Source of the DNA: Eledone cirrhosa
Taxonomy: Eukaryota
DNA length: 64,000 bases
Assembly (NCBI GenBank): GCA_964016885.1
Contig: OZ024742.1
Span: 258,168,001-258,232,000, forward strand
Reading direction: 5' to 3'
The notes under the pieces were generated by a model. It saw nothing but the letters and a program-made list of their open reading frames with translations. It did not search any database and was not told the origin of the DNA. A program made the translations under genes and the position numbers. This document shows, one piece after another, positions 3,999 through 59,771 of the stretch (within the stretch, counting starts at the first letter, position 1; each line of letters begins with the position of its first letter).

Positions 3999-4392
3999 TA
4001 TATTAATAAGAGGAATTCCAACTTTGTCTGATTTACTCGTTTTATTTACAATCCTTTAAAATATATATAATGGTATTATAATGAAATAGTATGATAGAAT
4101 ATTAAATTCTAAGTGTTAATTGAACAAGTACTTTCATGCTTTCGCAATCTTCAGGTTCATGATATGTGGTGACAGTCGAGTTTGCAATTTTCACAGTTGA
4201 AAATTGCAAACTCGACTGTCACCACATATCATGAACCTGAAGATTGCGAAAGCATGAAAGTACTTGTTCAATTAACACTTAGAATTTAATATTCTATCAT
4301 ACTATTTCATTATAATACCATTATATATATTTTAAAGGATTGTAAATAAAACGAGTAAATCAGACAAAGTTGGAATTCCTCTTATTAATATA
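3999..4392. repeat. Perfect palindrome (~195-bp arms, 4-nt loop at 4194-4197) between (TA)n tracts
   Basis: The arms are exact reverse complements by inspection. Confidence 0.95.
4232..4270 (+). ncRNA. Minimal hammerhead ribozyme (mirror copy on - strand at 4121-4159)
   Basis: TGAAC-CTGAAGA-TTGCGAAAGCAT-GAAA-GTAC-TT-GTTCA; stem III palindrome AGTACT. Confidence 0.85.
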
Positions 4393-4739
4393 ATCTTCTA
4401 TACACAATCATACACACCCGTGTATATTTACCTATCTATATCTATATATATATATATATATATATATATATATATATATATATATATATATATATATATA
4501 TATTCATATATAATCTATATTCTTCTGCTAATAAGTGTGACGGTACGCACCCTTTGTTGTGAACATCGAATCTCACATGGGATTTTTTCGAGTTACCACC
4601 ATTTATCCGAACAAAGATATTCGGATATTCGTATAGAGACATCAGGGAATCAAGAAGCTGACCATCGATCCCACATTCCTGAACAAACTTCCGTGGCATG
4701 TCCCGAGGAACGCGGTCATATGTATTTGCAAAGTCGACA

Positions 4740-5170
4740 AAGTATTATATACATCTTTCCAATTATCCTGCGATCACTCGAAGATCAATCGGGTGTGAAT
4801 ATTTGGTGGGGGAGTGCTGGGGCGACAACCACACTCTTCATCAGCAAGCTTAGATTGTCAATCTCCCTGCATCTCTTTGCCAGGAATTTAGCATAGACTT
4901 TACAAGGGAGGCTTAACAAGGAGATCCTTCTACAATTGGAACAATCTCTCTTGTCCCTATTTTTGAAAATTGGGTTAATCACTTCCGATGGCTATTGCTT
5001 AGGTTTATTTCCGGAGATCCAGACTACCGGACTCAGACAAGTCAGCCAGCGAATACCTTCTCTATTTATGTCTTTTAACATCTCGTATGAATGTGAGGAG
5101 CAAATAGACAGACATATATCTTTTCTTTAAAAACCCGACTGCTGCATTTTTGCCGATGGGTATACAGCCA
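4740..5170 (-). pseudogene. RTE-like LINE RT fragment
   Basis: INPIFKNRDKRDCSNCRRISLLSLPCKVYAKFL matches the RT domain-1 pattern PIxKxGDxxxCxNYRxISLL. Confidence 0.75.
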
Positions 5171-7509
5171 AACTGCAATTGAAGTGCACTCAAGATGTGA
5201 AGTTCTGAGCTTGTCAAGGGACTTCCTCAATGTAAGGACAAATTCTCCAAACTGATCGCTACTGGTTTTGTAAAGGGAAATGTATCAAGTGGTTTTATGG
5301 TCATCTGAAGTGTATTTAAGATTAGACTGCCGACGAGTAACTGAGTTGCTAGAAGAAGCAATCTATTTCAGCCTAATTGTTACTCATACAAAATATAGAT
5401 GCATCAGTTAATTTCTTATATATATATATATACATATATATGTGTGTGTGTGTGTGTGTGTATATATATGTGTGTGTGTGTATGTGTGTGTGTGTTTATA
5501 TGTGTTTACATTTATCTGTTGGTATGAGCGTGTGCCTCTGTGTTAGTTTGTGTATAAATATGAAGTAGTTGTTCCTTTAAATCTTCAATACATAACTGTA
5601 CTCTTTTTCATTTATCTTTGACGTGTATTTTTTATGCTATTTGGAGCGGTAACTTTCTTAAATTCAGAATCAGAATAGATTACGTTTTTGCATATCGATC
5701 ACGTGTTTACTAGAAATTAAAGAAGAAGTATGAAAATGTGTTTCAATACAGTATAGATAAACGAATTAAACAGGCATGCAGTATATGATAATAAAATAGA
5801 TATTTATAGAATTCCTCACAAACCATTGTCTACTACTATCTCGGCGTTAATAATATCAGGTTATTAATCAAAATAGATGCAGTATACCTAAACCAAATTA
5901 TAAATGTCACGCTCAAACCAATGAGAAATTTTAAATCAAGCGTTCATAAATTAGTGCCACTTCAGTGAGCTTTTCAGTCCCTGTCAATTGAAAGATTATT
6001 AGCTTCGTAAACATGTTACATATTTGGATGGTGGAATACTACTCATTCAAACTAAGCATAAATTATTAATATAGGAATAGGTAGAATCCTTAATGAAATT
6101 GATCAAACTAGATCACAGTCGTTATATATATAATCATCGATTATTTGGAGAAATTAGACGTAGAAAATAAATGATAAGAAAAAGAACATTTAACCCAGAG
6201 AGAGTGGAGTCAACCTATATGTGAAAAATAAGAATGTCGGTTGTTGGTATTAGCCACTGTGTACTTTTTGTATTGTCCCAGATTTTCTAGACTTTATTTA
6301 TAGCAGCCAACTGTGTTTATATATATTTTCTGCATCTGAGTTTTTTCTATCAAGTTCACATCTCAGTGCATAGAAAGTTCGCCACTATATACTGTAGTTT
6401 TGTTACTGAAGAACAATCAATTACTGATTCATACACGATTGTGTTGGATCTTAGGCTTTGATGATGGATTGCGAACCGCGATTTCCCTAAGTATAAAATG
6501 TGTATAAAACATCTTATCCATATTTTATCGCATGTTTCGACTACTAATAAGCGGTGATGATACAAGCGAAGAATACAACGTTAAACTTGATCATCGTAAT
6601 AGCATTGAGTGCTAAAACTAGTGCACTAAGAGTAATTGAATGTTGCGCGCACACACACACACACAGACACACACGCACGCGCGCACGCATGCGCACGCAC
6701 ACATGTATATGTATATATATCAAAGGCATGTATTAAGTTAGAAACTCAAAATAGTCTCTTACAATAAAATTAGCTCTAGGAAAGTGGTTTTTCCGAGATG
6801 TATAATATAACTGAACAAAAAAGAAACACGAACACAGACATATACATATATGTGTTCAAATCGTAAGGGACCAGATTCGCTAAGGTGAAAAGAATACTAA
6901 CTATAGACAATGGGTTTGCCAGACTCAATTTAAAAATAAATCAAGAAAAATAAATACAAACCAGAGTTGTGGTAACTACCAATTACCCGGACTGTTTTGA
7001 TAATACTTTTTCGCAATATTAATTGTGAAGAGGAATACCAAAATTCTAGCTCATCAGCGGCTGAAAAATTATTAGTATCCCAGTCACTTCTAGGTATATT
7101 AAAAACTGGATAGTGCTCGTATATATAACGCACATGGTGCCAGAACTTAGCGTGTCTCGCAAACCCACGCCACTAAACATAGCAGCCGTGTTTACTCGAC
7201 ATTTGAATTAGCTCGACGAATTAACGGAGCCGAATATATCAAAGGCATGTATTGAGTTTCTAACTCAATACATGCTTTGATATATTCGGCATGTGTTAGG
7301 TATTACTGATTTAAAAGCTAATTTCTCCTCCTATATATTTGATTATATATATATAAATATACACCCATTTGTTATTAGATGCTGACTGTAAGGTATTAAT
7401 GATATAAAAGCTAATGTTTCCTCCTATATATTTGATTATATATATATCTATATATATATATATATATATATATATATATATATATATATATATATATATA
7501 TATATATAA

Positions 7510-8873
7510 ATTAGACAATTATCAAAGTTGTGTTCAAATCATTTAATAGCTGCCAATCGTTTCTTCCAAACTTTCGTTTGGAACATCGGAGCTTTATCAA
7601 TGTTTGTACATATAATTAAACTCCTATTAAACTGAACAATCATATAGATACATATATATTGATGTTGTGAGGAACAGTTTCGTATTTAGAGGGTGTACTG
7701 GATGCGACATATATTATACGAGCATTGTACAATAAATCAAATTAAAATTAAAAGCACAGAGTGGAATACATGCAACAGATAATGCAAGAGAATAGTCTAA
7801 TAATTAAAGAGGCATTGAGAAAGAAGCATTGAGAAAGAAAGAGTACATTAGCAAGTGTGTAGAAAGTGCACATGCGTTAGTCATATATATGATCAGGAAA
7901 TAAGCAAGGTATTACGTATATATATATAAATACATAAATACTGTATGGTAAGCAAATATGTTAATGTATTAACATTTTTGGCGGGTGTAATATGTTAATA
8001 GTGTTCGAATGTGTGTGTGTTGATAAAATCAAAGTTATTGTAGTCCTTTCCATTAGATATGTTGAATTATATTTTAGTTAATGTTTATATTGAATGTTTT
8101 AAGTTAGTTAAAGGAATGGATTGTAAATTGGTCTTATTGTATTCTTATTCATAGATTAGAGTTGTTCAACAGGTAGTTTTTCCAACGGTTTAATTTTCGG
8201 AAGTGAGTATGAGCTCTAAGATTAAGAGGTGGTAATGTGTAAGGGGAGGTAACAAGCTAATTAAATTAAATTATTTAAATTCTTTGCTCTAATACACATT
8301 CTAATGTGATACAAGTGAATCTCTATTACATAATATATAGTTATACTTAATTTTAAATACAGTGTATAATACATTAAAAGGCCCATTAGATTGTTGTCTA
8401 TTCATTACTGGACAAGATATATGTTATGGAAAATGTAATAGCTGTTTACATGTCCAAATAGTTATATCTTTAATATACACTATTGTGTTAAAAGTTAATC
8501 CCTTATATACAATGCTATTAATTTATATATTTAATTATAAATGTATATATACTTAATTATTATTATATTGTGTTAAAAGTAAATCCCTTATATACATGCT
8601 ATTAATTTAAATATTTAATTATAAATGTATATATAATTTATTATTACATATTACATTAAATGTCTCTACATATTATATATCCATACTTTATATATTATAA
8701 TTAAGCTATAGTAGTTATATCAAAAGTTGGTAACTTTATCCTTAATTCTAATTATATGTAATTATAATTATATGTACAAACATTGATAATGCTCCGATGA
8801 TTCCAACGAAAGTTTGGAAGAAACGATTGTCAGCTATTAAATGATTCGAACACAGCTTTGATAATTGTCTAAT
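7510..8873. mobile_element. Non-coding element bounded by ~108-bp inverted repeats (7510-7618 / 8765-8873) carrying a hammerhead-like motif
   Basis: 8791-8834: GCT-CCGATGA-TTCCAA..TTGGAA-GAAA-CGATTG-TC-AGC (U4C core variant); the left arm abuts (TA)n. Confidence 0.7.
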
Positions 8874-58652: not shown

Positions 58653-59141
58653 AACGAAAGGACAAAGAGTCCAATCTCTTCAGTCAACGTCTGGAAATCA
58701 CTACGTTTTCGGTAAATTAATTTGGATAACGCTTATTCTCGCGCATAAGAAAACAGGTAGAGACAAGTTATGTATTTAGGCAATTTGCCCAAATGTAGAG
58801 AGCGCAAGGGCTTAAAAGGGACAAAAATGTAGAAAAGAAAGAAAGAGTAAAAAAAAAGTGAAGGACTGTTCTCCAACGTGCAGACAAGGAAGAGCACTGA
58901 GGCATAGAATTGGAAAGAAGGTAGGATACATGAATCAGGATGGGTGGTGTGATGTCTTCTATATGATAATTTCAAAATGTACCCTCATGGGTAAGTCTTT
59001 AGAATATACATTCACAATATGGTGCGCACAGGACAAAGACAATGGAAAAGAGGGACAGTCCCATCTCCTCAGTCAACCTGTATAAACCACTACCGTTTCG
59101 GTACATTAAGGTCGATAACGTCCATTATATATACACACGAA

Positions 59142-59334
59142 GGGCAGTGGATTGGCCGTATCGGTAGAGAGTCGGACGCCATGCTTTGAAGCAAAATAGT
59201 TAGGGCCCTTTATGATCTGAGTTCAAATCCCGCCGAGGTTAACTTTGCCTTTCATCCTTACGGGCTCGATAAAATAAAGTACCAGTAATACACTGACATA
59301 ATTGCTGGTCTTGTGCCAAAAGTAGAAACAATTA
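59142..59334 (+). mobile_element. SINE family A copy
   Basis: A/B boxes and 3' end. Confidence 0.9.
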
Positions 59335-59535
59335 TATCTACACGCAAACACAAAATTAGTCACACCTACACACACATATTTCTCTCTCACTCCCCCTCTC
59401 TCTCTCTCTCACTATATATATATATATATATATATATATATTTTGAGTTTATGTTGGTTGTATACCAACACCTCAGTATGCAGGCTGGAGCACTCGACGA
59501 AGTGCGCAGGTTGGTTTGGTTACTCCGGAGTAGTG

Positions 59536-59771
59536 TAAAATAAAGTTAAATAAAAGTCAAATGATTAAAATTTAGCTTCGTTTATTACTGCTATATATAT
59601 TTCAGTGACAGCCATCATTGGCTGTGACCTCTTCAGGCAGTTTGAATTAGTAGATACTAATTCAAACTGCCTGAAGGGGTCACAGCCAATGATGGCTGTC
59701 ACTGAAATATATATAGCAGTAATAAACGAAGCTAAATTTTAATCATTTGACTTTTATTTAACTTTATTTTA
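59536..59771. repeat. Palindrome (~117-bp arms, 2-nt loop) with paired hammerheads
   Basis: - strand 59587-59641: ACTGC-CTGAAGA-GGTCACAGCCA..TGGCTGTCACT-GAAA-TATATA-TA-GCAGT; the + strand mirror at 59666-59720 has CTGAAGG. Confidence 0.92.

What the first reader, a model, noticed from the sequence alone, without database searches (positions are those of the whole stretch)
3999..59771. Shared architecture rule: the inverted arm stops at a TA boundary while the sense arm continues into a unique tail
Seen in about nine unrelated families (3999-4430, 7510-8930, family F, family G, 31871-32870, 42000-45732, 51459-53720, 55548-55727, 59440-59771). The antisense arm abuts a (TA)n tract at the point where the sense arm reads ..TA.. 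and continues for a further 30-170 nt. The boundary lies tens of nt to ~120 nt 3' of the predicted cleavage site. Known: Penelope insertions often show inverted partial pseudo-LTRs and a 3' extension. Inference: a common integration mechanism in which a TA-like internal site primes at the nicked microsatellite and a second cDNA or fold-back makes the inverted arm.
Basis: partly seen in the sequence, partly recalled or inferred. Interest (0 to 1): 0.7.

Follow-up and report, generated by a model that had tools for sequence, protein, structure and literature searches.

The report
Penelope retroelements primed twice at TA
These lopsided palindromes beside TA repeats are insertion scars of Penelope-like retrotransposons, a layout already described, and their junctions suggest each was likely made by copying one RNA from two start points at once.

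Summary
The architecture is real and largely known. Twelve head-to-head inverted loci in nine families each carry exactly one tail. Both arms read sense outward from the centre, so the 'antisense arm' is the tail-less copy. Two loci hold RT/GIY-YIG fragments with Hydra-clade motifs, and most families carry a type I hammerhead. An inverted 5'-truncated copy, a one-sided tail and (TA)n targeting are published PLE/Hydra features.

Overlap with the tract is 2-5 nt (p 0.004; p 0.016 with three added loci); two added families tested alone were not significant.

Details I did not find in print:
- The tail-less end lies 48-61 nt past the predicted cut in 6 of 10 families.
- A shared stem-loop follows it in 7 of 10 (motif defined post hoc).
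- Arm pairs share variants by locus (9 sites against 0).
- A missed locus (13874-14296) has L1-style twin-priming geometry, which simple fold-back cannot make.

Best mechanism (inferred): both nicked TA strands prime on one RNA, at the tail end and at an internal UA site; the two cDNAs are then end-joined. Genome-wide copies and empty sites were not checked.

The parts
189..260 (-). N0 inverted arm (copy of 1905-1982, inside the 3' UTR); abuts a SINE-like repeat, no (TA)n tract
   Evidence: 87% inverted match; junction
326..1750 (+). 5'-truncated, broken PLE ORF: RT thumb, CxCX5C linker, GIY-YIG endonuclease without CCHH
   Evidence: tblastn E 1e-15 to 1e-28; HMM E 2e-57; translation
2096..2420 (+). 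3' terminal region of N0: H-family relative with a full type I hammerhead (core 2237, predicted cut 2357), ends tail-less on (TA)n
   Evidence: 65% to H arms; ribozyme scan
4003..4442 (.). Locus A: tail-less arm 4003-4198 (-), tail-bearing arm 4202-4392 (+), tail 4393-4442; minimal hammerhead read by eye, predicted cut 4265
   Evidence: 0 mismatches and 1 gap in 195 nt; overlap ATATA
7508..9000 (.). Locus B: tail-less arm 7508-7618 (-), unassigned 1.15 kb spacer, tail-bearing arm 8765-8879 (+), tail with stem-loop at 8884; tail end uncertain
   Evidence: variant hammerhead read by eye, predicted cut 8831
9278..9607 (.). Locus C: 29-nt arms around an internal (TA)n; long arm on (-) carries a degenerate hammerhead downstream of the short arm's end
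   Evidence: overlap only 1 nt; ribozyme read by eye
13120..13190 (-). Family G solo copy ending at the tail-less site on (TA)n; full hammerhead
13217..13431 (.). Family F palindrome: tail-bearing arm on (-), tail-less arm 13370-13431 (+), 15-nt locally repeated filler at the centre
13874..14296 (.).
   Evidence: reference copy carries a hammerhead core at 48615
31709..31787 (-). Family F solo copy ending at the tail-less site
31874..32930 (.). Locus E: tail-less arm 31875-32345 (-), tail-bearing arm 32346-32812 (+), tail to 32930 whose last 67 nt repeat 32339-32405 (525-nt tandem unit); hammerhead in both arms
37584..37766 (.). Family F palindrome with tail on the right
42002..45731 (.). Locus D: tail-less arm 42002-44092 (-) with a Hydra-type linker/endonuclease fragment (44084-43468), AT filler at the centre, tail-bearing arm 44139-45647 (+) lacking 585 nt, tail 45648-45731; hammerhead in both arms
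45767..45958 (.). Family F palindrome (diverged subfamily), nested at D's right-hand (TA)n
48501..48865 (+). Family M reference copy: hammerhead (predicted cut 48664), internal TA-like site at 48716, stem-loop, tail end
51459..53745 (.). Locus H: tail-less arm 51459-52072 (-) on (CA)8 then (TA)n, 0.93 kb spacer with microsatellites, tail-bearing arm 52999-53614 (+), tail of about 131 nt; old copy, degenerate hammerhead read by eye
   Evidence: 35 mismatches and 3 gaps in 616 nt
55546..55727 (.). Family G inverted locus: 29-nt tail-less arm (-) with A/T filler before (TA)n, 4-nt AAGA centre overlap, tail-bearing arm (+)
55772..55965 (.). Family F palindrome: tail-bearing arm on (-); tail-less arm (+) reaches 2-3 nt further at the centre
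57209..57502 (+). Family G solo tail-bearing copy, (TA)n on both sides, no inverted arm
59442..59771 (.). Locus I: tail-bearing arm 59652-59536 (-) with tail to 59442, tail-less arm 59655-59771 (+) on (TA)n; hammerhead core 59636
   Evidence: 1 mismatch in 115 nt; relative at 14891-15098 has a (TA)4 run at the same point

Best explanation
These loci are 5'-truncated insertions of Penelope-like retroelements with Hydra-type terminal repeats, and each inverted locus was likely made by twin priming: both nicked strands of a (TA)n target would start reverse transcription on the element RNA, one at the tail end and one at an internal UA-rich site. Shown by the sequence: the head-to-head layout, two fixed 3' ends per family, exactly one tail per inverted locus, short TA overlaps, and arm pairs that share variants. 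From published work on another PLE: the protein nicks and extends both strands and starts internally at two sites that delimit the tail (PMC11167929). Inferred: (1) a Hydra-type RT-endonuclease binds the RNA near the stem-loop just 3' of the internal site; (2) each TA 3'-OH pairs through 2-5 nt with a UA site; (3) the two cDNAs usually come from one RNA and, with no RNase H, run to the same broken 5' end, giving a near-perfect palindrome, while an early stall of either gives a spacer or an L1-like inversion; (4) end joining links the two cDNA ends, leaving 0-4 nt overlaps or short fillers. Identity as PLE inverted copy plus tail is about 0.95; the confidence below is for the twin-priming mechanism.
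For: Identity: ORF fragments at 326-1750 and 44084-43468 match 710-719 aa RT-EN proteins and show the Hydra endonuclease traits. A ribozyme scan found 14 type I hammerhead-like motifs against a mean of 0.8 (range 0-4) in 30 shuffles.

Two genuine ends: F tail ends coincide in 6 of 6 copies and G in 2 of 2. F tail-less ends lie within 3 nt in 5 of 5 copies. Solos end at either site.

Coupling: 12 of 12 inverted loci (9 families) have exactly one tail; independent choice of start site would give 0.0001-0.0002 per locus set or 0.001-0.002 per family set for assumed tail use of 0.5-0.6. In family F, 9 variant sites are shared by the two arms of one locus and 0 by arm role across loci. Both arms stop within about 15 nt of each other in A, I, E, D and four F copies, from 57 nt to 2 kb inward.

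Two cDNAs rather than fold-back: M has a 220-nt tail-less arm, about 23-27 nt of overlap with the tail arm and a 3-nt junction overlap, like L1 twin-priming inversion points with 1-5 bp overlap (PMC5673974). The tail-less arm is also the longer one at the centre in E (8 nt) and F55850 (2-3 nt), while G55548 and N0 go the other way.

TA site: overlap test p 0.004-0.016. The I relative and the published Hydra consensus ends show a TA run at the same place. E's tail end also falls on TATA of its own unit.
Against: In vitro, the anole PLE starts at a site not homologous to the cut DNA (PMC11167929), so pairing is not a general PLE rule. The TA overlap fails strictly at H, G55548, M (out of phase), K and C (1 nt), and the two added families tested alone are not significant (p 0.28). 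Central deletions after insertion could mimic a longer tail-less arm; E and F55850 rest on 1-3 informative bases, so M carries most of the weight. The two M arms differ at one site where both alleles occur in other copies, and only D's tail arm has a 585-nt deletion; both fit two different RNAs. B's spacer could not be assigned by homology. Only D, N0 and (through N0) H have coding evidence. All counts come from one 64-kb window.
Confidence: 0.58

Rival explanations
1. Fold-back (self-priming): one cDNA is primed at the tail end, snaps back at its truncated end and copies itself. The hairpin is then cut by the TA-preferring endonuclease, or joined, at the internal TA site.
For: Explains identical arms (A 0 mismatches, F13293 0 of 57), shared truncation points and exactly one tail. 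G55548 has a 4-nt centre overlap with a 30-nt loop on the tail arm. Self-priming was proposed in PMC3846280 and endonuclease resolution of the tail in PMC8557442.
Against: Cannot give M without a later deletion of about 190 nt ending near the second start site. Loops of 1-2 nt with 1-nt overlap in F and I. Solo copies end at the tail-less site with no hairpin (13120, 31709, 2420), so that site works as a start point on its own.
Confidence: 0.22
2. Two RNAs in one dimeric complex: each nick primes on its own RNA molecule, one subunit at each start site.
For: The anole protein is predicted to be a dimer. One-site difference between the M arms, the one-armed deletion in D, and different sequence upstream of the two B arms.
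Against: Does not explain why both arms stop at the same point in 8 loci, or the 9 to 0 locus-wise sharing of variants in F, unless both RNAs come from the same source copy.
Confidence: 0.12
3. Post-insertion erosion: symmetric two-tailed palindromes lost one tail by deletion between the (TA)n tract and an internal TA, which would create the overlap afterwards.
For: The overlaps are short, (TA)n tracts are unstable (recalled), and D carries a deletion with a 3-nt overlap.
Against: No two-tailed palindrome among 26 inverted hits. The least diverged loci (A, I, F13293) already lack one tail. The end point recurs within 3 nt in independent copies and solos.
Confidence: 0.04
4. The (TA)n tracts are written by the element's telomerase-like RT through repeated copying of the UA site, and are not pre-existing targets.
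For: A UA site lies at both ends where it can be tested; PLE RTs are related to telomerase (PMC8557442).
Against: Copies also end on (CA)n, on (CAT)n or on SINE sequence with only a short TA run (F34348, H, D-like, I-like, M46520, N0). SINE-like repeats in the window have their own (TA)n ends.
Confidence: 0.03
5. Sequencing or assembly fold-back artefact.
For: A and I are nearly perfect palindromes.
Against: Arms differ by up to 6%, stop at family-specific sites also used by solo copies, and do not mirror flanking host DNA.
Confidence: 0.01

Closest known systems
Hydra clade of Penelope-like elements (Craig et al. 2021, PMC8557442), including Hydra-1_Obim from Octopus bimaculoides and Penelope-13_HM
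   Same: C-terminal GIY-YIG without CCHH, CxCX5C linker, CxxC and CxH motifs, canonical type I hammerhead, (TA)n insertion. Penelope-13_HM is listed with a 5'-truncated inverted copy, and Hydra-1_Obim with four copies ending at one site.
   Different: Tails here are 50-144 nt, against the 30-40 bp given for PLEs. Several families have no coding remnant. The internal TA site, the stem-loop and twin-priming geometry were not in the passages and supplement parts I read.
PAc, Poseidon of Anolis carolinensis (Frangieh et al. 2024, PMC11167929)
   Same: Both strands nicked and extended; two internal start sites whose interval is the tail; start in an AC-rich stem-loop downstream of a hammerhead; AT-rich targets.
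   Different: Initiation there is reported as not homologous to the cut DNA, whereas here there is 2-5 nt of overlap with (TA)n. The start here lies 2-15 nt 5' of the stem-loop, mostly about 55 nt past the cut; PAc starts at ORF +111-118 with the cut at +26.
Adineta vaga Penelope families (Arkhipova et al. 2013, PMC3846280)
   Same: Head-to-head inverted pLTRs, palindromes at the junction, optional 31-bp tail on one pLTR.
   Different: Measurable target duplications and a different clade. Self-priming was proposed there; locus M argues for two cDNAs.
L1 twin priming (Ostertag and Kazazian 2001, seen as cited and illustrated in PMC5673974)
   Same: A second target strand primes internally, giving an inverted segment with a short overlap at the inversion point; locus M has this shape.
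   Different: In L1 the internal site is opportunistic and the segments barely overlap (recalled). Here the second site is fixed per family and the arms usually overlap over their whole length.
Non-LTR retrozymes (PMC7229834; bioRxiv 10.64898/2026.07.22.740005)
   Same: Non-coding tandem units with a type I hammerhead, proposed to be non-autonomous PLE derivatives. E has a 525-nt unit and K a 444-nt unit.
   Different: Only 1.1-1.3 units and one ribozyme per arm here, below the preprint's two-unit criterion.

Membership tests
Penelope-like elements (EN+) | RT plus GIY-YIG endonuclease in one ORF | tested here: met
   N0 326-1750 (thumb, linker, endonuclease) and D 44084-43468. No coding remnant was detected in A, B, E, F, G, H, I or M.
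Penelope-like elements (EN+) | 5'-truncated copies, inverted copy at the 5' end, tail on one side | tested here: met
   12 of 12 inverted loci
Penelope-like elements (EN+) | Type I hammerhead in the terminal repeat | tested here: met
   Scan hits for D, E, G, I, M, K and the H relative. A, B and H were read by eye; F keeps only the second half. Rfam listed no hammerhead among the 150 matches shown of 207. Cleavage was not assayed.
Penelope-like elements (EN+) | Partial tandem forming a direct pLTR | tested here: inconclusive
   Seen in E (525-nt unit) and K (444-nt unit) only
Penelope-like elements (EN+) | Target-site duplication | not testable with these tools
   Flanks are microsatellites and no empty sites were available
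Hydra clade | C-terminal endonuclease lacking CCHH between GIY and YIG | tested here: met
   One cysteine only between the two motifs in both fragments
Hydra clade | CxCX5C linker; CxxC and CxH near the C-terminus | tested here: met
   CNCRNKSKC, CDLC, CRH in D; CNCRNKANC, CRLC, CNH in N0
Hydra clade | N-terminal RWK and DKT motifs | tested here: inconclusive
   Window copies are truncated before them. Among 34 homologues of at least 650 aa, 20 have RW[KR], 28 have DK[TS] and 0 have ADKG.
Hydra clade | Insertion into (TA)n | tested here: met
   9 of the 12 strongest inverted hits end within 2 nt of a tract, against 1.1% by chance
Hydra clade | Placement on the RT tree | not tested
Naiad clade | N-terminal endonuclease, no canonical hammerhead | tested here: not met
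   The endonuclease is C-terminal and canonical hammerheads are present
Neptune/Nematis clades | CCHH motif and CX2-5CxxC linker | tested here: not met
   against the definitions; applies to D and N0 only
Non-LTR retrozymes | At least two consecutive units, each with a full type I hammerhead | tested here: not met
   E and K have 1.1-1.3 units per arm; criterion
MITE / DNA transposon | Terminal inverted repeats reaching both ends | tested here: not met
   One arm always stops 50-144 nt short, and solos lack the inverted arm

The most novel reading that the evidence does not exclude
Hydra-clade PLE RNAs encode a built-in second priming site: a UA run about 55 nt past the ribozyme, followed by a stem-loop conserved from this genome to coral and sea-cucumber elements. 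Twin priming on one RNA is then the programmed mode of integration, and both RTs running off the same RNA end is the general origin of PLE head-to-head palindromes with one tail.
Probability: 0.35. Interest if true: 0.65.

Novelty: new variant of a known kind. Interest (0 to 1): 0.4.

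Why it matters
Craig et al. name the formation of tandem/inverted PLE structures and the microsatellite bias as open questions, and the only full in vitro system I found (PAc) leaves the later steps unvalidated. The window turns the three candidate models into countable genomic predictions: tails per locus, which arm is longer at the centre, and whether arms share variants. It also names a candidate cis-element (UA site plus stem-loop) that can be mutated. In practice, these elements look like hairpins, MITEs or microRNA precursors to scanners and are easily mis-annotated. 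The headline rule itself would not surprise a PLE specialist.

Tried and rejected
Rfam: only sub-threshold microRNA-like hits among the 150 matches shown of 207; rejected. Pfam named neither PLE fragment nor five homologues. The first hammerhead scans were too strict and were superseded; one of its 14 hits (core 31968) is probably chance. The first overlap test misplaced five junctions and was replaced. Plain alignment of ten tails showed no invariant column; the stem-loop appears only as a paired motif, and free folding recovered its pairing in B, E and F but not D, G, I or M. The B spacer matched no other element in the window (best z about 3, in both orientations); its GC skew of +0.35 is suggestive only. 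No further PLE coding remnant was found with a wider profile. Naiad, Neptune/Nematis, MITE and retrozyme membership were rejected (membership test). K (9608-10168 and 11366-11677) is tail-to-tail and 79% identical, so it is treated as two insertions. The 7229-7290 palindrome has no tract or ribozyme hit and was left out. No structure or complex prediction was run, as nothing here depends on one. No animal DNA collection was available, so genome-wide copies, long reads and empty sites stayed unchecked.

Full report
Setting. The window is AT-rich animal DNA with 143 (TA)>=5 tracts covering 4080 nt, SINE-like repeats and LINE fragments. The host was not determined. An octopus is my guess, from the composition, a recalled resemblance of the SINE, and the listing of a (TA)n-targeting Hydra element in Octopus bimaculoides; no call tested it.

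Observation. Of 26 inverted hits within 5 kb, 9 of the 12 strongest have one outer end within 2 nt of a tract, against 1.1% expected per end, and none of the 26 has both. The nine entries are eight families. Six fit strictly (A, B with one mismatch, D, E, F, I). H sits on (CA)8, and G55548 has about 20 nt of filler. The overlap between tract and continuing arm is 5,5,4,5,0,2,3,0 nt, p 0.0044 against random joins. It is p 0.016 over 11 families with failures scored 0, and the two added families tested alone (M, K) are not significant. An earlier version of the test misplaced junctions and gave p 0.006-0.40.

Orientation. The endonuclease fragment in D reads on the minus strand in the left arm and on the plus strand in the right, and the ribozymes do the same. 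Both arms are therefore sense copies joined at their truncated 5' ends. The 'antisense arm' is a copy whose 3' end is the tail-less site.

Identity. Fragments at 326-1750 and 44084-43468 match 710-719 aa RT-endonuclease proteins. They show a CxCX5C linker, no CCHH, and C-terminal CxxC and CxH, the Hydra-clade traits, which come with canonical hammerheads and (TA)n targeting (PMC8557442 section 11). The N-terminal motifs are truncated away; 20 and 28 of 34 long homologues have RW[KR] and DK[TS]. H is tied to the N0 ORF through a 65% identical terminal region. The other families have no detectable coding remnant and are assigned by layout only. A relaxed scan gave 14 hammerhead-like motifs against a mean of 0.8 in 30 shuffles; those of A, B, C, F and H were read by eye and are minimal, partial or degenerate.

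One terminal layout. In 6 of 10 families the tail-less end is 48-61 nt past the predicted cut; the others are 20, 24, 127 and 225 nt (p 0.004 for such clustering under a uniform null, window chosen after the fact). In 7 of 10 a paired motif, RYTC...TYGARY, starts 2-15 nt after the boundary, often round an AC-rich loop. The background rate is 437 of 13203 positions; A, H and K lack it, as does the I relative. I defined the motif after seeing these tails and published ends, so its significance is not an independent test. By eye, the published consensus ends of Hydra-2_Amil and Hydra-2_Ajap show a TA run followed by the same or a near-identical stem, Hydra-1_Ajap begins with it, Hydra-1_Obim and Hydra-1_Ajap end in a TA run about 36-46 nt past the cut, and Hydra-1_Crog matches only partly. 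A further element at 55066-55326 has a half core, a TA run about 50 nt later and the stem.

Two ends per family. F tail ends coincide in 6 of 6 copies and G in 2 of 2. F tail-less ends fall within 3 nt in 5 of 5. Solos end at either site (13120, 31709 and 2420 tail-less; 32985, 34348, 57502 and 46520 tailed). It mirrors the two start sites of the anole element (PMC11167929).

How the inverted arm forms. All 12 inverted loci have exactly one tail, which independent start-site choice would rarely give (assumed rates). The two arms of each F locus share 9 variant sites, and none is shared by arm role, so the palindrome is rebuilt at each insertion or homogenised later. Arms stop together in 8 loci, up to 2 kb inward. 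These three facts require coupling and fit both fold-back and twin priming on one RNA. Locus M separates them. Its tail-less arm covers reference 48501-48716, its tail arm only 48694-48861, with a 3-nt junction overlap. Fold-back from the tail cDNA cannot supply the extra 193 nt, while L1-type twin priming gives this shape (PMC5673974). E and F55850 lean the same way on very few bases; G55548 and N0 have the tail arm longer. Centres show 1-2 nt loops, 0-4 nt overlaps or locally repeated filler (F13293, D), which I read as end joining of two ends (recalled hallmark). That PLE RTs lack RNase H and could displace a strand is recalled and inferred, not tested. Against one RNA: a one-site difference between the M arms and the one-armed deletion in D. 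Against relying on centres: palindrome centres can be remodelled later (recalled).

Literature seen. PMC8557442: keyword passages, section 11, supplement searches and parts 2 and 53 of 59. PMC11167929: parts 1-2 of 4 (main text and start of methods); a search of its three held supplement files found none of four terms, and its figure images, which map the start sites, could not be seen. PMC3846280: parts 1-4 of 5. bioRxiv 10.64898/2026.07.22.740005: part 1 of 5. PMC4209133, PMC7229834, PMC5673974, PMC8969392 and PMC13282606: keyword passages. PMC4209133 notes ribozyme pairs 100-700 bp apart on opposite strands in Schistosoma. Nine searches showed no paper on PLE twin priming, TA overlap at the tail-less end, or this stem-loop. 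The library lacks most subscription journals, including the 2005 and 2006 PLE reviews and Repbase reports, so absence is weak evidence.

Verdict. The inverted tail-less copy, one-sided tail and (TA)n target are known. The longer tails, the conserved internal TA site with its stem-loop, and the twin-priming locus are details I did not find described, and they make an acknowledged open question testable. New variant of a known kind; interest 0.4.

Noticed in passing
window 13874-14296: Non-palindromic inversion of family M with twin-priming geometry; the only clear case found by the adjacent-opposite-hit scan.
   Followed up: yes
window 13293-13431, 37581-37687, 45769-45875, 55850-55965: Four family F hairpins from three subfamilies share the same centre within about 3 nt, though a solo (31709-31787) extends 12 nt further; a fixed RNA 5' end or a strong RT stop is unexplained.
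   Followed up: partly
window 32339-32930: Family E is a non-coding 525-nt tandem unit with one hammerhead, retrozyme-like; the palindrome centre maps into sequence repeated in its own tail.
   Followed up: partly
window 9608-10168 and 11366-11677: Family K: 444-nt unit with a small hammerhead, two convergent copies 79% alike whose 3' ends differ by about 63 nt.
   Followed up: partly
window 56049-56672, 57700-58566, 55066-55326, 14891-15098, 56885-57107: Further solo ribozyme-bearing or related terminal repeats ending on microsatellites, without an inverted arm.
   Followed up: partly
window 2237-2357 and about 53440-53557: Hammerheads with a very long stem II (102 nt in the 2237 copy), partly built from self-complementary microsatellite-like sequence.
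   Followed up: no
window 44333-44335: D's tail-bearing arm lacks 585 nt, including most of the endonuclease, with a 3-nt overlap at the break and no GT-AG ends.
   Followed up: partly
window 52072-52310: The H spacer holds a 78% copy of the start of H's own tail (52179-52226) in sense orientation; unexplained.
   Followed up: no
window 7619-8764: The B spacer has GC skew pointing outward on both halves, as if the two arms had different upstream sequence; it includes a local duplication 8481-8703.
   Followed up: partly
window 20759-25820: Long LINE-like element with an ORF1-like frame, an apurinic-type endonuclease (Pfam E 1.8e-14) and an RT (E 2.3e-29) in separate ORFs.
   Followed up: no
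window 19693-20562 and 14276-14890: Two other LINE 3' fragments; the first has a weak zf-RVT match.
   Followed up: no
window 1-187, 9036-9224, 17990-18378, 25942-26129, 27870-28066, 50883-51067, 59147-59335: A SINE-like family of about 190 nt, 82-95% alike, often ending in TA runs; several PLE ends abut it.
   Followed up: no
window 54222-55036: Direct repeat of 200 nt (90%) 614 nt apart between (TA)n tracts; could be another partial tandem, no ribozyme hit.
   Followed up: no
window 7229-7290, 6720-6851, 10256-10339: Small palindrome and related repeats without (TA)n contact; probably another element class.
   Followed up: no
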